The position numbers were made by a program, and so were the translations under genes. From a virus (Duplodnaviria > Heunggongvirae > Uroviricota > Caudoviricetes): a stretch of DNA of 18,748 nt. How positions within the stretch are numbered: position 1 is the stretch's first letter; each line of letters starts with the position of its first letter. The notes below the pieces were generated by a model. The model was not told the origin of the DNA and did not search any database. It saw nothing but the letters and a program-made list of their open reading frames with translations. Shown piece after piece: positions 4,586 through 18,693 of the stretch. The DNA lies in the IMG/VR virus record IMGVR_UViG_2565956607_000001, positions 1 through 18,748 of that record; one strand, given 5' to 3'.

Positions 4586-7500
4586 CTATCTTGGTTTTTT
4601 AGATTGGAGATTTGAATAAATAGCCCGACCGAATTTCTTCTGGGGGTTATTTACTTCGGCGGTTAAGGTGTTAACTATCCGCTGTTCCAGAGCGTCATTC
4701 CTTCGCTCAATTGCCTGCATCGTTATGTCATCCGGTTTACCGGTGAACGTACTTCTGGCATCTACGCTGACAGCAATTCGTGGCTGTGCCTGGATCTGGT
4801 TAGCAGCGTTCTGTACCGCCGGCGATTCCCGCCCAACAGCTTTGACCCCCAGCGAACCATCAGCGCCACGGGTAAGCGGCATGATGGCTTCCGGCCCGGC
4901 CTCGCCGAATACACCCGCCCCTTTCGCAAACGCAAAATATTGGGGAGTGCTGTAAACACCATTGCTGTAGGCAGAAAGTGACGGAGAATCGTAAACGCCT
5001 CCGAGAGCGTTGAATGAAAAATTAGCTCCCGCGCTTTGAATAGCGGTACCACTACTTACCGCACCGCTGGCACCGCCAAAAAGACTACCGAACAACCCAC
5101 CCGCTCCGCCGCCAAATGACGCCATAATCGCTTTGGTGATCAACGCCTGTGTTGCCATCTGGATCAGCGTCTTAATCACCGTTTCACCCAGAGAGCTGAA
5201 GATATTCGACATACCATCTTTAAACGAAGTGGCGCCCGTCAGGACGCTAGTCAGGTTGTTCGAGATCGAGTTAGTGGTGGCATCCAGAATTTCGCTGGTT
5301 GCAGTAGCAGCCATTGAACTCAGATCAGAAGCCTGATCGGCATAGTTCATCAGGGAATCGCTGATCCCTGCCCGCCAGTCTGACTGCTGTTCATCGGTTT
5401 TTTTGTAATACTCCTCCTGAATATCCAGGCGTTCGGCAAGCGCTGCTTTAAGCGCTTCCGTTTGCTTTTTATACAGGTCTTCGGAAATCTGCCCACGACT
5501 GAAATCACGTTGTAAATCCCGCTGCTGCCTGAGAAAATCAGCGCGAATATCCGCCATTTCCTTCATTCGGTCACGGGCTTTATCCCCCTGTCCCGCGCCG
5601 AGGAAATCGATATTCCCCCTTTCCCGGGCGGCAGTATTACTGTCGGCCAGACCTTCGCGGAATGTTTTTAACTGTTCAGCGATATTTTTCTGATCAATAA
5701 GCGCCGCATTGTGCAGCAACGTTTCCTTTTTGGATTTTTCAAGCGAAGATAATTCCCCCTGAGTAACCTGATATTTCATCTTTGCCAGCTCAGTGTTTTG
5801 GCTGGAAAGAGCAATTTGCTCCCGTTGCTGTTTAATCAGCCGGGTATAGGTATCTTCGGTTTTCTCCGCCTCGGTTTTCCCATGCCTTCCTTTTGGCTTG
5901 GGTTTATTTTCCTGGTTGTTTCTCCATTCATTCAGGCCGTTATTAATCAACTCCTGCCGTCCGGTCTGAAACTGTGGGTCGTTAGTTAACCCCAGGTCAT
6001 CCGCAGCATAACCCAGTCGTGCGCGCTCCTTGTCCTCACCTTTGAGTTTTGAAAGCGCCAGATCACGACGGCTTTTTTCAAGTGCAGCCGTTTGCTGGGT
6101 TGTCAGGTCTACCTGTGGTAAGCGTACTGGTGCGTTTACCAGCCCCTGTCGGGCCATGAGAAGATTATTTCCGAGACCCAGCAAACGGTTAAATTCAGTA
6201 TGCTCACCGTTCATCATTAATAACGATTGATATGCTGAATTCTGTTCTGCAGCCTGCTGCCGGATTAATGCTATTCGCCTGTTCTCTATCCCTTCCAGTA
6301 CCGACTGGATCGACTCAGACTTAGCCTGCATCTGAGCTAACCTCTCCTGTTCAACGGCCAGAGCGGAAGTCGCTTCTTCCAGACCACGGGTGACCGTTTC
6401 GACCGAAGTCAGGTGGTTTATCATGAAACCGCCACTGGTTGTTGGTCCGGGGTTAGACAGGACATACTGATAGCCAGCGATCTCTTCCTTCAGGCTTTTT
6501 ACTTTAGATGCCTGGGCATCAACAAGACGGTTTTGCTCCTCCAGCGCCTGACGGGTTTTGGTCTCATTATCAGAAACTTCGGGCAGGGACATTGATTTTG
6601 TCTTTTCACGGACAGCATCAATGGTGTTTGCATATTCCTGAGCGGATAATCTGGCCTGCTCCTGATTCTGGTACATCGTGTACCAGGCACCGGCACCAAG
6701 CAAAACCAGCCCAGGAATACCGCCAACGAGGCCTAATGCTCCCCCCATGAGCCGGGAACCTACAGCAGTAACCGAGTTCAGTGCAGTCTGAGCGGATACT
6801 CTGGCCTGAATATTACGGTTAAGTGACTCCTGCGCCAGTGAGAGCCGTTTTTCTGCGGCGGCCTGCGCGTCTGTACCCCGCGCCGCTGCCAGTGCCTGCT
6901 GGGCACGATAAACTGCAGCACGCGCACGAGCTGTCGAAACCTGCGTCCCTCTGACCTGGGCTTCAGCTAAAGCTACTTCGCTTTTTGCGGCGTTAATAAT
7001 CCCAGCCGTTGCAGAGCTGGCACCAAGAGCCATATTTCCCAAATATCGGGCAGCACCAACGGCAACAAGCGCTCCGGCAGCAGTGGCGACCTGATCAATA
7101 TTGTTGGCTACGCCATCAAGTAATCCGGTCAGGGTATTTGTCGCGCCACTCGCTTCATTAGCTCCACCGACCCATTGCATAAAAGCGTTTTCAACTTTTG
7201 TTGCCGACGATGAAACGGTCTGCGGCAACTCACCATATTCATTCCGGAGCTTACCAAGCTGGCTGATGAGGGCCGGAACTACTTTATCAATGGTTAACTG
7301 CCCCTGATCCGCCATAGATTTAAGGTCTTTACGCGCAACCCCCATCCCTGCCGCAAGCGCCCGTATAACCCTGTCGCCGCTCTCGTTGACGGCATTGAAT
7401 TCTTCGCCTCTCAGCACGCCCTGCGCCAGAGCCTGGCTAAACTGAGTGATGACCGAACTGGACTCCTGAGCATTCGCGCCAGAAAGTTTTAAACCAGTAG

Positions 7501-7972
7501 AAATAGCCTCAGTAATATCCAGCACCTGGCTGGAGCTGTAACCATATTCCCGCATTGAGGCTGCTGAACGGGAAAATAAATTAGCGTTGTCAGAAAAAGA
7601 TGTGCCCGTTTTCTGGCTGATATCCATCAGCTGTTTTTGAGAGCTGGTAAAATCATCAGTTGATTGAGATGCCTGTTTTAGCCGGGCGTTTACTGAATTC
7701 CATTCATCAGCCAGGGATATTAAATGTCCCGTAGCAAAAGCACCAGCAAATGCCCCGGTTAATCCCAGTGCGGTAGCCTTTGCTGACTCCATCTGGTCAG
7801 TAAGCTCAGCAACAGAACGGCGAGTTTCCCGAACTGAAGCCGCAGCCTGCCTGCCGCCATTCTGCATTGTTTTATAATAATCAGCCCCCATACGTGACGC
7901 GCGGGCTATCTCGGTCTGAAATGACTGAGAGTTAGCAGAAACTTTAATGATAAGTTCACGCAGGGTTGCCAT
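4586..7972 (-). CDS. Tail tape measure protein (1128 aa)
   Basis: Very long Ala/Gln/Leu-rich, coiled-coil-like sequence with a Gly-rich C-terminal segment (GGGAGGLFGSLFGGASG); lies between the chaperone pair and the distal tail genes; GAGGA Shine-Dalgarno about 6 nt upstream of the ATG. Confidence 0.85.
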   Translation of the reverse strand: MATLRELIIKVSANSQSFQTEIARASRMGADYYKTMQNGGRQAAASVRETRRSVAELTDQMESAKATALGLTGAFAGAFATGHLISLADEWNSVNARLKQASQSTDDFTSSQKQLMDISQKTGTSFSDNANLFSRSAASMREYGYSSSQVLDITEAISTGLKLSGANAQESSSVITQFSQALAQGVLRGEEFNAVNESGDRVIRALAAGMGVARKDLKSMADQGQLTIDKVVPALISQLGKLRNEYGELPQTVSSSATKVENAFMQWVGGANEASGATNTLTGLLDGVANNIDQVATAAGALVAVGAARYLGNMALGASSATAGIINAAKSEVALAEAQVRGTQVSTARARAAVYRAQQALAAARGTDAQAAAEKRLSLAQESLNRNIQARVSAQTALNSVTAVGSRLMGGALGLVGGIPGLVLLGAGAWYTMYQNQEQARLSAQEYANTIDAVREKTKSMSLPEVSDNETKTRQALEEQNRLVDAQASKVKSLKEEIAGYQYVLSNPGPTTSGGFMINHLTSVETVTRGLEEATSALAVEQERLAQMQAKSESIQSVLEGIENRRIALIRQQAAEQNSAYQSLLMMNGEHTEFNRLLGLGNNLLMARQGLVNAPVRLPQVDLTTQQTAALEKSRRDLALSKLKGEDKERARLGYAADDLGLTNDPQFQTGRQELINNGLNEWRNNQENKPKPKGRHGKTEAEKTEDTYTRLIKQQREQIALSSQNTELAKMKYQVTQGELSSLEKSKKETLLHNAALIDQKNIAEQLKTFREGLADSNTAARERGNIDFLGAGQGDKARDRMKEMADIRADFLRQQRDLQRDFSRGQISEDLYKKQTEALKAALAERLDIQEEYYKKTDEQQSDWRAGISDSLMNYADQASDLSSMAATATSEILDATTNSISNNLTSVLTGATSFKDGMSNIFSSLGETVIKTLIQMATQALITKAIMASFGGGAGGLFGSLFGGASGAVSSGTAIQSAGANFSFNALGGVYDSPSLSAYSNGVYSTPQYFAFAKGAGVFGEAGPEAIMPLTRGADGSLGVKAVGRESPAVQNAANQIQAQPRIAVSVDARSTFTGKPDDITMQAIERRNDALEQRIVNTLTAEVNNPQKKFGRAIYSNLQSKKPR

Positions 7973-7990
7973 TTCATTTCCTCAGAAACA

Positions 7991-8017
7991 AAAAACCCCA
8001 CATTGTGGGGCTTTTTT
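7991..8017. terminator. Bidirectional rho-independent terminator (stem CCCCAC/GTGGGG flanked by A5 and T6)
   Basis: Read directly: aaaaaCCCCACattGTGGGGcttttt; the hairpin is followed by a U-run on either strand. On the minus strand it closes the 8033..8266 gene just upstream of the tape measure RBS. Confidence 0.6.
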
Positions 8018-8032
8018 ATGATTTCAATATTA

Positions 8033-8266
8033 TTAAATTAAACCAGCTTTTTTCCTTGCTTCTTCCAGATAATCTTTTTCTGGTTCCTCTTTTTTATGAG
8101 CAAGTGCAATCAGAAGATCAATTTGAGCACTTTGCTTTTCAGAGATTTCTTTAAGCATAGCGATCTGATCATTAGCTCTTACGCTTCCTCTGTTCAGGAA
8201 ATACCAGATAACAAGATCAATAAGGCGAGCAAAAACAAATAATAATATCCAGCCAGTAGTAGTCAT
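8033..8266 (-). CDS. Moron-like small protein (77 aa) with an N-terminal hydrophobic helix and a charged, helical C-terminal half; function unknown
   Basis: ATG preceded by GGAGTG about 6 nt upstream; clearly AT-richer than its flanks; N-terminus GWILLFVFARLIDLVIWYFL looks transmembrane; followed by the terminator at 7991..8017; sits between tail chaperone and tape measure genes, which are normally adjacent. Confidence 0.6.
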   Translation of the reverse strand: MTTTGWILLFVFARLIDLVIWYFLNRGSVRANDQIAMLKEISEKQSAQIDLLIALAHKKEEPEKDYLEEARKKAGLI

Positions 8267-8296
8267 TTAAAGCACTCCGTGTGTCAAAAAAACAAC

Positions 8297-8312
8297 ATAA
8301 CACCTGTTATGA
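8297..8312. promoter_or_regulatory. Perfect 7-bp-arm palindrome CATAACA-cc-TGTTATG upstream of the moron; candidate operator
   Basis: Read directly in the 72-bp gap between the T-like ORF stop (8339) and the moron start (8266). A TTGACA hexamer lies just downstream on the minus strand but has no well-spaced -10, so promoter status is unproven. Confidence 0.3.
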
Positions 8313-8338
8313 GTGGCATCCACACGAATTATTACTGG

Positions 8339-8644
8339 CTATGCTGACGCAGCCAGCAGCGCCGCTTCCAGCCCTGCAAAGGGATCGCCACCGTCGTTTA
8401 CCTCAACCTCTTCTGCGCTCCACTGAAGCTGAGCATCTTCAATGGTGACTTTACCGCCCTGCGCTCCGTAAACCGCAGATACCAGCTGAGCATTGAGAAT
8501 ATCGCCGCGAATATCGCCGATTGGGCTGATACGGTCGTATTCAGCCCACATCCTGAATTCGCCGACCGTCAGGGTTTGTCGCAGTTCGCCCAGCGTGCGG
8601 CCCATCCGGAGCGCCAGCGCCATCAGGAACTGCATGCCAGGCAT
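8339..8644 (-). CDS. Tail assembly chaperone, T-like downstream part (101 aa as a free-standing ORF; possibly made as a G-T fusion)
   Basis: Starts 2 nt after the upstream gene's stop, in the -1 frame relative to it (TAAAAATG); no Shine-Dalgarno of its own; sits between major tail and tape measure genes like lambda G/GT. Confidence 0.55.
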   Translation of the reverse strand: MPGMQFLMALALRMGRTLGELRQTLTVGEFRMWAEYDRISPIGDIRGDILNAQLVSAVYGAQGGKVTIEDAQLQWSAEEVEVNDGGDPFAGLEAALLAASA

Positions 8645-8656
8645 TTTTACTTTGCT
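8645..8656 (-). other. Candidate programmed -1 frameshift window at the end of the G-like gene (minus strand AGC AAA GTA AAA then ATG)
   Basis: The -1 frame is open for only 3 codons before the G stop (in-frame TAA at 8657-8659), so any shift must occur on GCA-AAG at 8650-8655. That is not a canonical X_XXY_YYZ heptamer; independent initiation at ATG 8644 is the alternative. Confidence 0.3.
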
Positions 8657-9051
8657 TTAGCATCATCCGCGTCACGAATGAGATCAAGTGCCTGCTTCAA
8701 CAGCCGGGAATGCACTGGGCCATAGATCGCTTCAACCTGTTCGGTGTCATCGACAGTAAAGACGGGCTGCAGGTCGGTATCCAGCAAAATATCGATGAAA
8801 AGCGTGACGTCGGCCCGCATCGTGCGGAAGGCTCGTTCTGAAGGGGTCAGTTCTGGTGCCTCATGGGGCTCCTGCCCTTCCGGTAGTTTGGGTGGTTCCG
8901 GGCTGGCAATGCCCTGCCAGCGAATCCAGGCTTCTGCTGATGGCTCACGAATGATGACTTTGGCGTTATCCCACTCCGGAACGGAGACTTCTTTTTTACG
9001 AAAGCCCGCCATCGGTGCCAGTGCCAGTGCTTTAAGACTCGGTTTTGACAT
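8647..9051 (-). CDS. Tail assembly chaperone, G-like (134 aa)
   Basis: Small acidic protein directly after the major tail protein gene, followed by a -1-frame overlapping ORF; classic siphovirus arrangement. Confidence 0.6.
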   Translation of the reverse strand: MSKPSLKALALAPMAGFRKKEVSVPEWDNAKVIIREPSAEAWIRWQGIASPEPPKLPEGQEPHEAPELTPSERAFRTMRADVTLFIDILLDTDLQPVFTVDDTEQVEAIYGPVHSRLLKQALDLIRDADDAKAK

Positions 9052-9081: not shown

Positions 9082-9798
9082 TTAATTGATGGTGACGGTG
9101 CAATCAGAAGAAGTGATCACAGTGCCATCGGCATCAGTAACCACGCAGGAATAAACCCCGGCATCACCGGATACAGCGCTGGCTTTCGTAAACGTTGCGC
9201 TGGTCTGGCCGCTGACCGTCGAGGTGCCCTTTTTCCAGGCGTAGGTATAAGGTGCCGTACCGCCCTGGACGACCACGCCCATGGTCAGGGCGCTTCCTGC
9301 CGAGACCGTTTGGGACGCCGGAAGGTCAGTAGCAAACGACAGAACTCCTGGGGCGTTAATATTGGTGGGTTTACCTTTCAGACGCAGCGAGAACGTTGCA
9401 GCAACCACGCCATTGGTTTGAGAATCCCAGGTGTGCTGACGTACCTCAGCGCGCATCAGGAATCCATTACCAGACGGGAAAATAACCTTAAACCCATAAA
9501 CCCCGTCGTTATCATATGCTTCACGAAGTGCATCCTGCGCCGGGTTGCGGTAGAAGTTACCGGAAAGTGACATTTCAGACGGAGCAGGAAGGCCGTTGAT
9601 ATTTTCCGTTTCATCCGAACAGAGCGTTGTCACGTCAATATCGTTTTTCTGACCAGCGGTAAAGCTTGCCTGTTTGATAGTGCAACTCAGGTTTAACCAG
9701 GTTGCGGTATCCAGCTCTGCCGCGGTGACCGGCACAGAGGTAATCATTACTACCGTTTTTTGGGCACGTTCAAATAGTGCTGACATCGCAGCCTCCAT
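9082..9798 (-). CDS. Major tail protein with C-terminal Ig-like domain (238 aa from the first ATG; a start at the second ATG, 9786, is more likely)
   Basis: C-terminal roughly 90 aa (TDLPASQTVSAGSALTMG...YSCVVTDADGTVITSSDCTVTIN) has the look of a bacterial Ig-like domain, common on major tail proteins; the first ATG itself contains GGAGG placed 5 nt before the second ATG. Confidence 0.7.
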   Translation of the reverse strand: MEAAMSALFERAQKTVVMITSVPVTAAELDTATWLNLSCTIKQASFTAGQKNDIDVTTLCSDETENINGLPAPSEMSLSGNFYRNPAQDALREAYDNDGVYGFKVIFPSGNGFLMRAEVRQHTWDSQTNGVVAATFSLRLKGKPTNINAPGVLSFATDLPASQTVSAGSALTMGVVVQGGTAPYTYAWKKGTSTVSGQTSATFTKASAVSGDAGVYSCVVTDADGTVITSSDCTVTIN

Positions 9799-12785: not shown

Positions 12786-13640
12786 TTACTGGCATGCGTT
12801 AGCCAGGCCGCTTAATGCGACATCCAGCTCAGCTAAAATTTCAGGGTTGGGTTGGGTAGCGCGCGGCATACCATCGGGATCGGTAACAGCGCCCGGCGTG
12901 TTACCAGTTAAAGCTTTGATTAATTTCCGGCGTTCAGACCGGGGGGTATTTGTTTTCGCCAGCAGAGCATCAAGTTTGCGAAGCGCAGCTGCAGGTGATT
13001 CGTCGCCGTCGCTGACCGCATCAGCAGAAAGCAGGCTGTCTGCCAGTCCCTTCGCCACAGCATCGCTGCCACCGATATAACTTTCGGCGTCCATCAGTTT
13101 CTGAACGGCGGCAATATCAAGGCCGGATCGCGCCGCGTAGATATCAGCCATTGCGGTATCGAATGGTTCCAGTGACTGTGCCAGTTCAGCAAAGTCAAGG
13201 CGGTTTCCCATCGCGTACACCCAGCAGTTGTGGATCATCAGGAATGCACCGCGGCCAATCTGAATATCATCCCCGGCCATCGCAATTATTGAAGCGGCAC
13301 TGGCGGCAATGCCCAGCACCTTCACCGTTACACGGCCTTCGTATTCACGGAGGAGGTTATAAATAGCCAGACCTTCGAACATGTCGCCGCCCGGCGAGTT
13401 GATATTCACCGTAACATCGGCGCCGTTCATCGCCCGAAGCGCACCGGCAATACGTTTAGCTGTTATCCCTTCCCCCCAGTAGTCCTGCCCTATAACATCA
13501 AAAACAGAAATACTGTTATCGTCGGTGGCCGCCGCCTTGATTCCACCGTCCCAGCGGTCCAGTGCGGACGGTAATGTTTCACAGGTAACGCGCGCGCAGG
13601 GGCGACCCGCCGGCGCCACCGGAAGTTGTTTTTTGCTCAT
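12786..13640 (-). CDS. Prohead maturation protease, ClpP/S14-like (284 aa)
   Basis: ClpP-type motifs (NSPGGDMFEGLAIYN; GIAASAASIIAMAGD) and position between portal and capsid genes. Confidence 0.8.
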   Translation of the reverse strand: MSKKQLPVAPAGRPCARVTCETLPSALDRWDGGIKAAATDDNSISVFDVIGQDYWGEGITAKRIAGALRAMNGADVTVNINSPGGDMFEGLAIYNLLREYEGRVTVKVLGIAASAASIIAMAGDDIQIGRGAFLMIHNCWVYAMGNRLDFAELAQSLEPFDTAMADIYAARSGLDIAAVQKLMDAESYIGGSDAVAKGLADSLLSADAVSDGDESPAAALRKLDALLAKTNTPRSERRKLIKALTGNTPGAVTDPDGMPRATQPNPEILAELDVALSGLANACQ

Positions 13641-13653
13641 CAGGAAAGTGCTC

Positions 13654-14961
13654 CTAAGCGGCCTGTTTCAGCGGAGATTGTTCAAAGGAAATGTCGGGGA
13701 ATACGTGGTTATGCAGCTCTCGCAAAGCCAGAGCCTGAACAGCAGGGTTGCTGCTTTCGAGATTTTTCAGTTGCGTCAGGTTGAGCTGAACGGTGTAAAT
13801 ATCGCCCCCTTCAATCGGCGGCATGTTTTCAAGACGGCGAACGTCATTGCGAGACATCCAGCCATTCTGCAGGGCGCTGGTATAGTAAGCAGCACGACCC
13901 GCACTATCGGCGCGCAGAAGCCCTTCAACGGAGAACTCAGCAAACAAGTCCTCATCACTGTTAAGAAGACAACGCGATATTTCCTGCTCAATATTGACCA
14001 GGAGAGGACGCAGGGTATGAGTCAGGAACAGCATGTTCATCCCTTCAAGACTCGAAGCCCAGCTGGATTGTTTTGTCGTATGGCCGACCATAAATGGCGG
14101 TACGCGAAACCAGCGACAAATTTCCTCAATACTGAATGAACGGCTTTCAAGGAGCTGAGCGGCCTCCGGGTTCATAGTGACATTCTGGTAAGTCAGTTCA
14201 TTTTCGAGAACCATCAGTTTCCCGGCGTTTTTAGAACCAATAAAAGACTGAAGGTTTTGACGCAATCTTTCTCGCTGTTCCTTATTAAGCGCCGTTTTTG
14301 AAGACAGGAAACCAGTACTTTGCAGGCCATTTTCGAAGATTTTTGCCGCGGCTTCATCAACCGACATAGCAGCGCCGAAAACGTCAACCCCGGCCATTGT
14401 CGGCATCATGCCGCACACGCCATCGAGACCAAACCCACGAATATGCATCATCCTGTCTACAGGAATGATCCGCGGAACGCCATTTTCCGTGTAGGTGTAC
14501 TGTAATTTTCCGCTATCGAGTCGCTTTACAACCATTTTCTGAGGAAGAAGCGGAACCATTGATACCAGCTTGTTACCAATGAAAAACTTTTCGACAAAAG
14601 CATTACCACGCAGACAAATGCTGGCCACAATCATCAGCATGAAACGGGAAGGTGTCATTTCCGGGTTAGGGCGCCTGCATAATATCTGGTATGCAAGATT
14701 ATTCTGGGCCAGTTTTCTAGATCCATCTGACTGTCTCTCGTAAATTTTTAGCGGAAGCGTGGATACCGACTCACTCAAGAGCCTCACGCACGCCCAGACG
14801 GTAGAAAGCCTGATAATTTTGTCAGCGGTGACAACTTTTCCGCTACTGCTGGTCCCGAACCACTCCTGCCAGAATTCACCGGTAGTCAGGCCTATGGGAA
14901 CACCAAGCCAGTTTAAAAGGGCGCTCTTAACGCGCCCTGGTTGCTGTTTATTCTTAGCCAT
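13654..14961 (-). CDS. Portal protein (435 aa)
   Basis: Size and position immediately after the large terminase gene; portal stop and TerL start abut at 14961. Confidence 0.8.
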   Translation of the reverse strand: MAKNKQQPGRVKSALLNWLGVPIGLTTGEFWQEWFGTSSSGKVVTADKIIRLSTVWACVRLLSESVSTLPLKIYERQSDGSRKLAQNNLAYQILCRRPNPEMTPSRFMLMIVASICLRGNAFVEKFFIGNKLVSMVPLLPQKMVVKRLDSGKLQYTYTENGVPRIIPVDRMMHIRGFGLDGVCGMMPTMAGVDVFGAAMSVDEAAAKIFENGLQSTGFLSSKTALNKEQRERLRQNLQSFIGSKNAGKLMVLENELTYQNVTMNPEAAQLLESRSFSIEEICRWFRVPPFMVGHTTKQSSWASSLEGMNMLFLTHTLRPLLVNIEQEISRCLLNSDEDLFAEFSVEGLLRADSAGRAAYYTSALQNGWMSRNDVRRLENMPPIEGGDIYTVQLNLTQLKNLESSNPAVQALALRELHNHVFPDISFEQSPLKQAA

Positions 14962-17946: not shown

Positions 17947-18123
17947 GTTTTACCTCTGTGCGATGTGGGGAGCCACTCTTATGCTCTTGATTTGCTGTCA
18001 ACCGTCATTGCAGTGCTTATCACAGCAGCCTGAGCGGTCGGTAATTATGCTTGCACATCCGCGCTTACGACATGTGGGGGAATTAACGGTGGCATCGGTT
18101 ACTGCTTAGCATTCGAGGTGCAA

Positions 18124-18148
18124 TAAAAAGCCCCGCATAAACGGGGCT
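18124..18148 (-). terminator. Rho-independent terminator (stem AGCCCCG / CGGGGCT, 6-nt loop, then UUUUUAUUG on the minus strand)
   Basis: Read directly, 24 bp downstream of the stop of the 18172..18396 gene. Confidence 0.6.
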
Positions 18149-18171
18149 GTAGATTCAGATAAATGGTTTGG

Positions 18172-18396
18172 CTACTGATAGCTATCTGCAAAATGCCCTT
18201 CGATCTGAGATCTGACATCAACAGCTTCGTCTAACTTTAAGGAATCATAGCCCTTAATATGGAAATGAGGTTCATATGCATAAATAGTAATAAACGCATA
18301 TGACCCTTCATCTCCTGAGAAAATCTCATATTTGACGCGTGAAAGACCGGCACCAACTAACATGTATGCATCCAGAAGCTTATGGGTGTTCATCAT
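18172..18396 (-). CDS. Hypothetical protein (74 aa) in an AT-rich accessory cassette
   Basis: ATGATG start with an AAGGAAAAGGAA purine-rich RBS region; AT-rich compared with the structural module; followed by the terminator above. Confidence 0.5.
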   Translation of the reverse strand: MMNTHKLLDAYMLVGAGLSRVKYEIFSGDEGSYAFITIYAYEPHFHIKGYDSLKLDEAVDVRSQIEGHFADSYQ

Positions 18397-18501
18397 CCAT
18401 TCCTTTTCCTTTAAAAATCCTTACCAGCATACATGCATTCGATGGATAACGGCAGCAATACATCCTTGAAGACTTCGAAAAGAAACCTCAGCGTCAGTGA
18501 G

Positions 18502-18693
18502 TTAATACCCACACAGCCATCCAATAATTCCAAAAAATAAAGCGGCAAGTAGCCAGCCAAGTGCAGTTTTCTTCATTAACACTCCGTAAAATGCTATAGA
18601 CATCCCTAGACAGAGCGTTATAAAAACTGGCCACATAGTCAATAACAAAAACAAATAACTGACTAACCCACTATTAATAGTTACATTCACCAC
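18502..18693 (-). CDS. Possible small hydrophobic membrane protein (63 aa; start assigned to a GTG with poor RBS, true start uncertain)
   Basis: Two or three hydrophobic segments (LVSYLFLLLTMWPVFITLCLGMSIAFYGVL; LGWLLAALFFGIIGWL); AT-rich; within 55 bp of the window edge, so context is incomplete. Confidence 0.35.
   Translation of the reverse strand: MVNVTINSGLVSYLFLLLTMWPVFITLCLGMSIAFYGVLMKKTALGWLLAALFFGIIGWLCGY

What the first reader, a model, noticed from the sequence alone, without database searches (positions are those of the whole stretch)
7991..8338. AT-rich single-gene moron between the tail chaperone and tape measure genes
Chaperone and tape measure genes are normally adjacent in siphovirus tail operons. 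Here they are split by a self-contained unit: an operator-like palindrome, a 77-aa ORF with a good Shine-Dalgarno, and a bidirectional terminator. The ORF is visibly AT-richer than its flanks, the signature of a horizontally acquired moron. The protein has one N-terminal transmembrane-like helix and a charged, probably helical C-terminal half. Prophage morons of this shape often encode superinfection-exclusion, anti-phage or host-modulating functions, but the sequence gives no functional motif, so the role is open.
Basis: partly seen in the sequence, partly recalled or inferred. Interest (0 to 1): 0.6.

Follow-up and report, generated by a model that had tools for sequence, protein, structure and literature searches.

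The report
HK97 gp15-type YebO-like prophage moron
The small AT-rich gene between the tail chaperone and tape measure genes is real, but it is a relative of gene 15 of phage HK97, the original "moron", whose product blocks DNA injection by rival phages; so it is a common, already annotated Klebsiella-prophage member of a known kind.

Summary
On the minus strand, a 77-aa ORF (8033-8266) lies between tail assembly gene T (8339-8644) and the tape measure gene (4586-7972). It has a GGAG ribosome site and is followed by a strong intrinsic terminator (7990-8017). It sits in the lowest-GC stretch of the window: 35% against 52%, GC3 24%.

The claim of no functional motif is wrong. The protein matches Pfam YebO (PF13974, 60 bits, cut-off 27). 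RefSeq already names it "YebO family protein", and the exact sequence occurs on at least 1000 public contigs, mostly Klebsiella. It is 49% identical to HK97 gp15, which occupies the same slot and is a published inner-membrane superinfection-exclusion protein. The adjacent tape measure protein is 52% identical to HK97's.

In 85 close relatives the slot is never empty. It holds at least seven interchangeable AT-rich cassettes, almost all encoding predicted membrane or exported proteins.

The most likely function is gp15-like exclusion at DNA entry. This is inferred, not shown. The promoter and the "operator" palindrome are unsupported.

Verdict: a new member of a known kind, of low to moderate interest.

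The parts
8339..8644 (-). Tail assembly protein T gene, the upstream boundary of the slot. It is in the -1 frame relative to chaperone G (8647-9051).
   Evidence: Pfam Phage_tail_T 63.7 bits and Phage_TAC_1 151 bits. Similarity to relatives with other cargo ends at the T stop codon.
8267..8338 (-). 72-nt AT-rich leader of the cassette (38.9% GC). It contains the palindrome, a weak candidate promoter and the ribosome binding site.
   Evidence: It varies among copies about as much as the ORF does.
8296..8311 (.). Function unsupported.
   Evidence: It is unique in the window and absent from the prophage immunity region. In ST147-VIM1phi7.2 an IS21-family element is inserted in it, and the site there reads ATAACGAGTGCTAT.
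8294..8322 (-). Candidate sigma-70 promoter: TGGATG, 17 nt, then TGtTATGTT (extended -10). Weak and not significant.
   Evidence: My own scan: score 9.0, reached by 12% of shuffles. The stricter tool scan found nothing upstream of the ORF.
8275..8278 (-). Shine-Dalgarno GGAG, 8 nt before the ATG.
8033..8266 (-). 77-aa YebO-family, HK97 gp15-type protein. It has an N-terminal transmembrane helix (about residues 6-24, with R14 and D17 inside), the NRGSVRAN juxtamembrane motif, a gp15-type helix (KQSAQIDLLIALAH) and a gp20-type tail (DYLEEARKKAGLI).
   Evidence: Pfam PF13974 at 60 bits against a cut-off of 27. phrog_5031 E=6.7e-38, the same PHROG as gp15 and gp20. BLASTP to gp15 49% over 51 aa, E=8e-18. 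BLASTP to HK022 gp20 47% over 72 aa. BLASTP to K-12 YebO 43% over 49 aa. Alignment and tree. Hydropathy. AF2.
7990..8017 (-). Rho-independent terminator of the cassette (A6-GCCCCAC-AAU-GUGGGGU-U6), symmetric and so able to act in both directions. It ends 18 nt before the tape measure start codon.
   Evidence: Each alternative cassette in relatives, and HK97 gene 15, carries its own different hairpin at the same place.
4586..7972 (-). HK97-type tape measure protein gene, the downstream boundary of the slot and the presumed class of target of gp15-type exclusion.
   Evidence: Pfam Phage_HK97_TLTM 325 bits, TMP_3 and Tape_meas_lam_C. It is 52% identical over 1070 aa to HK97 gp16. Only the C-terminal third matches the HK022 protein.

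Best explanation
This is a gp15-type moron. It is a horizontally acquired, AT-rich, single-gene cassette with its own terminator, inserted between tail assembly gene T and the tape measure gene of an HK97-like lambdoid prophage of Klebsiella type. An identical copy lies in E. coli p10A.

Proposed mechanism, by analogy with HK97 gp15:
1. In the lysogen the gene is transcribed on its own, and the transcript stops at the hairpin at 7990-8017.
2. During lytic growth, Q-antiterminated late transcription reads through that hairpin.
3. The 77-aa product inserts in the inner membrane through its N-terminal helix. The positive-inside rule predicts N-terminus out and C-terminus in.
4. There it stops incoming siphoviruses with an HK97-type tape measure protein from delivering DNA across the inner membrane. 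Surface receptors are not touched.

Shown here: the anatomy, the composition, the homology to gp15, the shared position, the exchangeability of the cassette, the HK97-type tape measure neighbour, and purifying selection. Inferred: expression in the lysogen, membrane topology, and the exclusion activity and its target.
For: - Family and homology: Pfam YebO is above its cut-off. The protein falls in the same PHROG as gp15. It is 49% identical to gp15 overall and 15/24 identical in the soluble helix, against 6/24 for gp20 and 7/24 for chromosomal YebO. It clusters with the gp15 clade in an NJ tree.
- Position and architecture: same slot as HK97 gene 15, with a short leader, ORF, hairpin and then the TMP start.
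- Published function of gp15: expressed from the prophage, located in the inner membrane, blocks genome injection of HK97 and HK75 without blocking receptors. Swapping in the HK022 tail region relieves the block (PMC3594210; PMC10883804).
- Neighbouring target: the TMP is HK97-type, 52% identical over its full length.
- Slot behaviour: empty in HK022. In 85 close relatives it holds at least 7 alternative AT-rich cassettes, six of which encode predicted membrane, lipoprotein or secreted products.
- Wider linkage to TMP genes: a 75%-identical homologue in another genus sits in the same slot. A further gp15-clade member sits upstream of a different tape measure family.
- Late transcription: the prophage has a Q-family antiterminator.
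- Selection: 9 synonymous to 4 non-synonymous changes.
Against: - No activity has been tested for this protein or any 77-aa member.
- Overexpression or deletion of chromosomal E. coli YebO had no effect on HK97, so family membership alone does not predict exclusion.
- The protein differs from gp15. It has an extra 15-residue tail shared with HK022 gp20, whose function is unknown. Its transmembrane helix carries R14 and D17 and is less hydrophobic by the simple scales used.
- No significant promoter was found.
- The predicted C-in topology puts the conserved helix in the cytoplasm. That is not obviously where a tape measure protein would be met.
- PADLOC has no model matching it.
Confidence: 0.6

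Rival explanations
1. It is a lysogenic-conversion gene that changes host envelope or stress physiology in the way chromosomal YebO does (function unknown), and not a phage-exclusion factor.
For: The best Pfam match is YebO. The juxtamembrane motif NR(A/G)SVRAN is shared with chromosomal YebO. The tail DYLEEARKKAGL is shared with HK022 gp20, which has no known exclusion role. The gene is extremely common in clinical Klebsiella, on at least 1000 contigs.
Against: The soluble helix is gp15-like (15/24 identical), not YebO-like (7/24). The C-terminal ..IPER/VAER motif of the chromosomal clade is absent. The gene is linked to tape measure genes in at least two phage types. Neighbouring cassettes in the same slot are also envelope proteins, which fits a defence hotspot.
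Confidence: 0.2
2. The gene serves the phage's own lytic cycle, for example as a membrane helper for tail assembly, lysis timing or DNA ejection. On this reading it is a late gene, not an independently expressed moron.
For: The slot is never empty in the 85 closest relatives. No significant promoter was detected. The gene lies inside the late operon, which a Q antiterminator would read through.
Against: The occupants of the slot are unrelated to one another: a 77-aa single-pass protein, a 173-aa multi-pass protein, lipoproteins and secreted proteins. No common virion or assembly role is therefore plausible. HK022 does without any gene here. IS elements sit in the cassette in some relatives. 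A strong terminator directly in front of the TMP gene makes sense only for a separate transcript.
Confidence: 0.05
3. The ORF is a chance reading frame in an AT-rich spacer whose real role is regulatory, as a terminator or attenuator in front of the tape measure gene.
For: The ORF is short and AT-rich. Rfam hits under the terminator are all far below their thresholds.
Against: The Pfam and PHROG matches have E-values of 1e-16 to 1e-38. Homologues at 40-75% identity occur in other genera. Substitutions are mostly synonymous.
Confidence: 0.01

Closest known systems
HK97 gp15 (62 aa), the first described moron; a superinfection-exclusion protein (Juhala et al. 2000; Cumby et al. 2012, J Bacteriol 194:5012; summarised in PMC3594210)
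   Same: Same slot between GT and an HK97-type tape measure gene, with the same layout of AT-rich leader, ORF and private terminator. Same Pfam and PHROG families. N-terminal TM helix. 49% identity overall and 63% in the helix KQ.AQIDLLI..AH.
   Different: 15 residues longer, with a C-terminal tail (DYLEEARKKAGLI) that gp15 lacks. The TM helix carries R14 and D17. The hosts are Klebsiella-type prophages. No functional test exists. DNA identity to gene 15 is only about 51%.
HK022 gp20 (74 aa) and its amber-interrupted copy in HK97; a moron between tail genes K and I, function unknown
   Same: Same Pfam and PHROG families. 47% identity over 72 aa, an identical C-terminal YLEEARKKAGL, and a 23-nt exact DNA match at the 3' end.
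   Different: It lies in a different slot (K-I), as does its Serratia homologue. Its central helix is unrelated (6/24 identical).
Chromosomal YebO of E. coli K-12 (b1825, 95 aa, next to mgrB), function unknown
   Same: TM helix followed by NRASxR(A/T)NEQI. Pfam PF13974. 43% identity over 49 aa.
   Different: Chromosomal, not in a prophage. It has a different central helix and a conserved C-terminal ..VAER/IPER motif that is absent here. Overexpression or deletion of YebO had no effect on HK97.
Other injection-blocking exclusion proteins of temperate phages: P22 SieA, TP-J34 Ltp, Tuc2009 Sie2009 (analogues, not homologues)
   Same: Small membrane-anchored prophage products that block DNA entry after adsorption. 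For Ltp and gp15, escape maps to the tape measure or tail region.
   Different: No sequence relation. They have different anchors (Ltp is a lipoprotein; SieA is multi-pass) and different genome positions.

Membership tests
Pfam PF13974 YebO-like | Score above the curated gathering cut-off | tested here: met
   60 bits against a cut-off of 27, E=2.7e-16, residues 13-70. RefSeq names the identical protein 'YebO family protein'.
Pfam PF13974 YebO-like | N-terminal hydrophobic helix followed by the NR(A/G)SVRAN.Q motif | tested here: met
   Residues 6-24 have mean KD 2.11. R26 is invariant, and R30, N32 and Q34 are at least 90% conserved in a 31-sequence alignment.
Chromosomal YebO orthologue group | Chromosomal locus and the C-terminal ..(I/V)(P/A)ER motif with an LLEALL.QQKRQ helix | tested here: not met
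   The gene is in a prophage tail operon. The C-terminal motif is absent and the helix is 7/24 identical. It falls in a separate clade.
HK97 gp15-type exclusion moron | Sequence homology to gp15, including its diverged soluble helix | tested here: met
   49% over 51 aa, E=8e-18. Helix 15/24 identical. Same NJ clade. Same phrog_5031.
HK97 gp15-type exclusion moron | Located between the tail assembly chaperone G/T genes and an HK97-type tape measure gene | tested here: met
HK97 gp15-type exclusion moron | Expressed from the repressed prophage | tested here: inconclusive
   The terminator is present and strong. Only a weak candidate promoter was found, and 12% of shuffles score as well. There are no expression data.
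HK97 gp15-type exclusion moron | Inner-membrane protein | not testable with these tools
   Prediction only: one hydrophobic helix, no K/R in the N-flank and 3 K/R in the C-flank, and a single long helix in AF2.
HK97 gp15-type exclusion moron | Blocks genome injection of phages in a way that depends on the tail tube or tape measure | not testable with these tools
   Needs plating, adsorption and injection assays.
Moron in the sense of Juhala et al. 2000 | Extra DNA between two genes that are adjacent in related phages | tested here: met
   In HK022, gp14 ends at 8458 and the TMP starts at 8478. Relatives carry unrelated cassettes between the same two genes.
Moron in the sense of Juhala et al. 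2000 | Nucleotide composition different from the flanks | tested here: met
   35% against 51-59% GC, GC3 24% against 50-63%, and the lowest-GC stretch of the window.
Moron in the sense of Juhala et al. 2000 | Own promoter and own terminator | tested here: inconclusive
   The terminator criterion is met. The promoter is not established.
HK022 gp20-type moron | Located between tail genes K and I, with the ELLESI..KLSKI central segment | tested here: not met
   The slot is different and the central helix is 6/24 identical. Only the C-terminal tail is shared.

The most novel reading that the evidence does not exclude
The T-to-TMP junction of this HK97-like Klebsiella prophage lineage may be an always-occupied, fast-exchanging hotspot for envelope-targeted exclusion genes, each travelling next to the tape measure gene it discriminates against. 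The 77-aa form combines a gp15-type helix, a gp20-type tail and a charged R14/D17 pair inside the membrane helix. It might act on a different inner-membrane entry factor than HK97 gp15 does. That would give a handle on the still unknown inner-membrane step of DNA entry for Klebsiella siphoviruses, and on prophage-borne resistance relevant to phage therapy.
Probability: 0.25. Interest if true: 0.45.

Novelty: new member of a known kind. Interest (0 to 1): 0.22.

Why it matters
The finding mainly shows that this is the classic HK97 gene 15 moron in Klebsiella form.

It has some practical weight. The exact protein is on at least 1000 public contigs, mostly K. pneumoniae. If it excludes phages as gp15 does, it is a very common prophage-borne barrier to siphoviruses with HK97-type tape measure proteins, which matters for choosing therapeutic phages.

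The survey also shows that this junction always carries a cassette, and six of the seven cassette types encode predicted envelope proteins. That makes the junction a convenient place to look for new exclusion genes.

PHROGs still lists the family (phrog_5031) as 'unknown function', and PADLOC has no model for it. Annotation pipelines therefore miss a published defence function.

Tried and rejected
- Rfam scan of 7700-8700: only sub-threshold hits under the terminator hairpin. No known RNA element.
- PADLOC and NCBIfam: no model matches the protein or gp15.
- Promoter scans: the tool scan found only sites inside the ORF. My looser scan found TGGATG-17-TGtTATGTT, which is no better than 12% of shuffles. 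I do not claim a promoter.
- Palindrome as an operator: it occurs once in the window. There is no copy in the CI/Cro region of the identical p10A prophage, whose repeats look like CTAAATTTAG instead. Its frequency is close to background. I found no support for an operator role.
- Differential conservation of the leader: among 22 distinct copies the leader varies about as much as the ORF, so this is uninformative.
- AlphaFold: one long helix. I ran no fold search, because a single helix gives meaningless matches.
- Cumby et al. 2012 (PMC3430355): not held in the library. I relied on the same authors' addendum (PMC3594210) and on PMC10883804. I saw Cumby et al. [quoted passage not shown] That these are PtsG and FkpA is from my own memory.
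- Recent capture from the host chromosome: rejected. Identity to chromosomal YebO-type proteins is only about 30-40%.

Full report
**1. What is in the sequence**

All genes of this part of the window run on the minus strand.
- The order is major tail protein (9082-9798), chaperone G (8647-9051, Pfam Phage_TAC_1), T (8339-8644, Pfam Phage_tail_T, in the -1 frame relative to G), a 77-aa ORF (8033-8266), and a 1128-aa tape measure protein (4586-7972) with the Phage_HK97_TLTM, TMP_3 and Tape_meas_lam_C domains.
- The ORF has GGAG 8 nt before its ATG.
- 15 nt after its stop codon comes A6-GCCCCAC-AAU-GUGGGGU-U6 at 7990-8017. It folds at -17.7 kcal/mol on the gene strand (z -3.6) and -13.2 on the opposite strand.
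- The tape measure start codon follows 18 nt later.

**2. Composition**
- The ORF is 35.0% GC (GC3 24.4%) and the whole unit 7973-8338 is 35.2%.
- T is 59.2%, G 54.6%, TMP 51.3% and the window 52.0%.
- The lowest-GC 234-nt stretch of the entire 18.7 kb begins at 8012.

**3. The ORF is a real gene of a known family**
- It matches Pfam PF13974 (YebO-like) with 60 bits against a cut-off of 27, and phrog_5031 with E=6.7e-38.
- The window is 100% identical over 1 kb to a prophage in E. coli p10A and p10B and 98-99% identical to many Klebsiella phage and prophage records. RefSeq calls the protein 'YebO family protein' (WP_016530182.1).
- The exact 77-aa sequence is on at least 1000 contigs (the counter's limit), almost all Klebsiella.
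- Among nine alleles, codon changes are 9 synonymous to 4 non-synonymous, where 21% synonymous would be expected at random.

**4. The key comparison**

A translated search of phage genomes found the next-best relatives in HK97, HK022 and their kin. HK97 carries two such genes.
- Gene 15 (62 aa) lies between the G/GT chaperone genes and the tape measure gene 16. It is followed by its own terminator and is annotated 'moron product'.
- The second gene lies between K and I. It is intact in HK022 as gp20, also annotated as a moron gene product, but is interrupted by an in-frame TAG in HK97.
- The window protein is 49% identical to gp15 over 51 aa (E=8e-18) and 47% identical to gp20 over 72 aa. It is 43% identical to E. 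coli K-12 YebO over 49 aa.
- Region by region: its soluble helix (residues 35-58) is 15/24 identical to gp15, 6/24 to gp20 and 7/24 to YebO. Its last 14 residues are 11/14 identical to gp20, and gp15 has no counterpart.
- An exhaustive search found only 36 representatives at 50% clustering. A rough neighbour-joining tree sorts them into a chromosomal YebO clade (C-terminal ..IPER/VAER), a gp20 clade, and a gp15 clade that contains the window protein.

**5. What is known about gp15**

Gene 15 of HK97 is the element for which the term 'moron' was first used. According to the authors' own summary, gp15 has these properties (PMC3594210; PMC10883804):
- It is expressed from the prophage and inserts in the inner membrane.
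- It prevents genome injection by HK97 and HK75 without blocking outer-membrane receptors and independently of repressor immunity.
- The block is relieved when the HK97 tail region is replaced by that of HK022.
- gp15 belongs to the YebO family, but overexpression or deletion of E. coli YebO has no effect on HK97.

The primary paper was not available in the library.

**6. Context fits the same model**
- The neighbouring tape measure protein is 52% identical to HK97 gp16 along its whole length. It matches HK022's only in the C-terminal third.
- The identical prophage in E. coli p10A is lambdoid. It has an integrase next to a tRNA-Arg gene, a LexA-type repressor, Cro, and a Q-family antiterminator upstream of the lysis and late genes.
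- A terminator placed directly in front of the tape measure gene would therefore be read through in lytic growth. In the lysogen it would end a private transcript. This step is inference.

**7. Is the slot a cargo site?**

I fetched 80 viral contigs encoding a T protein at least 90% identical to the window's and added the annotated relatives and the window itself. I then extracted the DNA between the T stop codon and the tape measure start codon. Of 85 loci, none is empty.

| Cargo in the slot | Loci |
|---|---|
| 77-aa YebO-like gene | 52 (one with an IS element) |
| 173-aa multi-pass membrane protein | 21 (two with an IS5-like element) |
| 94-aa protein with a signal peptide | 5 |
| 148-aa lipoprotein | 4 |
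| 134-aa lipoprotein | 1 |
| 98-aa secreted protein | 1 |
| true gp15-like 61-aa protein | 1 |
| larger insertion | 1 |

- The seven single-gene cassettes are 32-40% GC. In every cassette type whose DNA I read (the window, L002, L003 and HK97 gene 15), the ORF is followed by its own, different hairpin.
- Similarity between loci with different cargo stops at the T stop codon and resumes at the tape measure ribosome site.
- In HK022 the two genes are 19 nt apart.
- A 75%-identical homologue in a Symbiopectobacterium-type prophage sits in the same slot behind a second small gene.
- A gp20-type homologue in Serratia sits in the K-I slot.
- Another gp15-clade member sits among small ORFs upstream of a tape measure gene of a different family.

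**8. The protein**
- The most hydrophobic 19 residues are 6-24 (mean Kyte-Doolittle 2.11). Unlike gp15, gp20 and YebO, this segment contains R14 and D17.
- The N-flank has no K/R and the C-flank has three. This predicts N-out, C-in topology.
- AlphaFold with a 34-sequence alignment gives one continuous helix over residues 3-73. Mean pLDDT is 84, above 90 to about residue 50 and 62-77 in the tail.

**9. What is not supported**
- *Palindrome.* CATAACA-GG-TGTTATG (8296-8311) exists. Palindromes with six-bp arms occur at about 0.16 per 72 nt in this window. This one occurs once and has no counterpart in the immunity region of the same prophage. In phage ST147-VIM1phi7.2 an IS21-family element sits within it, and the reconstructed site is not a perfect palindrome.
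- *Promoter.* No convincing promoter was found. The best candidate, TGGATG-17-TGtTATGTT (8322-8294), overlaps the palindrome but is matched by 12% of shuffles.
- *Databases.* Rfam, PADLOC and NCBIfam add nothing.

**10. Verdict**

It is a Klebsiella-prophage member of the HK97 gp15 / YebO family, at the position of the founding moron, and public databases already name it.
- That it is a gp15-family moron is near certain.
- That it excludes superinfecting phages at DNA entry is the best-supported mechanism. I put this at about 0.6 because no member of the 77-aa form has been tested, family membership alone does not predict the activity, and the form has a distinct tail and a charged membrane helix.
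- The modestly new points are that the slot is always filled in this lineage, mostly with predicted envelope proteins, and that the 77-aa form combines gp15-type and gp20-type segments.

Noticed in passing
L007:7562-7786 (HK97, record coordinates about 13561-13785): HK97 carries a second YebO-like moron between tail genes K and I. It is homologous to HK022 gp20 but interrupted by an in-frame TAG, and it is unannotated in NC_002167. It keeps its own terminator.
   Followed up: partly
window 8043-8065: A 23-nt exact DNA match (GAAGAAGCAAGGAAAAAAGCTGG, encoding EEARKKAG) to the 3' end of HK97/HK022 gene 20. The genes are otherwise only about 57% identical at the DNA level. This suggests recombination or constraint at the nucleotide level.
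   Followed up: partly
window 8644-8660: T is in the -1 frame relative to chaperone G, but the canonical slippery heptamer of HK97 (GGGAAAG) is absent. The junction reads GCA AAG TAA AAATG. T may therefore be made by a slip on A-AAG at the stop codon or by re-initiation at its own ATG 2 nt after the G stop. RefSeq annotates the two separately.
   Followed up: partly
L006:58-2500 (Klebsiella phage ST147-VIM1phi7.2); also L029, L043, L045: Insertion sequences sit inside the cassette or slot in several relatives: an IS21-family element between T and the YebO-like gene, and an IS5-like transposase in others. This DNA therefore tolerates disruption.
   Followed up: partly
L002:3437-3958, L003:2917-3201, L070, L036, L081 (slot between T and TMP): Alternative cargo in the same slot comprises a 173-aa multi-pass membrane protein, 148-aa and 134-aa lipoproteins, and 98-aa and 94-aa secreted proteins. 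None has a Pfam family. The 173-aa and 134-aa proteins share a C-terminal domain (phrog_2320, phrog_16400; motif G(Y/F)VCG..N(A/S)KNS(F/Y)GAYAG). All are untested candidate exclusion factors.
   Followed up: partly
L002 and L036; L003 and L083 (first ~45 nt after the T stop): Cassettes with different cargo share the same 5' junction sequence. In L002 and L036 it contains TGGTAGGAT. In L003 and L083 it reads (G)TGACA-17-TAGGAT and overlaps the T stop codon. The leader looks like a separately exchangeable, promoter-like module.
   Followed up: partly
L091:3601-4237: In a Symbiopectobacterium-type prophage the slot holds two genes in tandem: a 113-aa protein (phrog_914, unknown function) and a 78-aa YebO-like protein 75% identical to the window's.
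   Followed up: partly
window 8216-8227 (residues R14 and D17 of the 77-aa protein): The predicted membrane helix carries an Arg and an Asp three residues apart. They are conserved in the Klebsiella, Raoultella and Symbiopectobacterium forms but absent from gp15, gp20 and YebO. This may be an intrahelical salt bridge or a partner-binding site.
   Followed up: no
window 18097-18514: This is the only other stretch of the window with GC at or below 40%. It holds small minus-strand ORFs (18172-18396 at 74 aa, 18502-18693 at 63 aa), annotated as hypothetical proteins in E. coli p10A, between the lysis genes and the terminase. It may be more accessory cargo.
   Followed up: no
window 9082-9798: The major tail protein has a C-terminal Ig-like domain (Ig_2 and Ig_3 hits just around threshold). 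This is a common decoration of siphovirus tail tubes.
   Followed up: no
phrog_5031; PADLOC-DB v2: PHROGs lists the family containing HK97 gp15 as 'unknown function' and PADLOC has no model for it, although gp15 has a published exclusion function. This is an annotation gap.
   Followed up: yes
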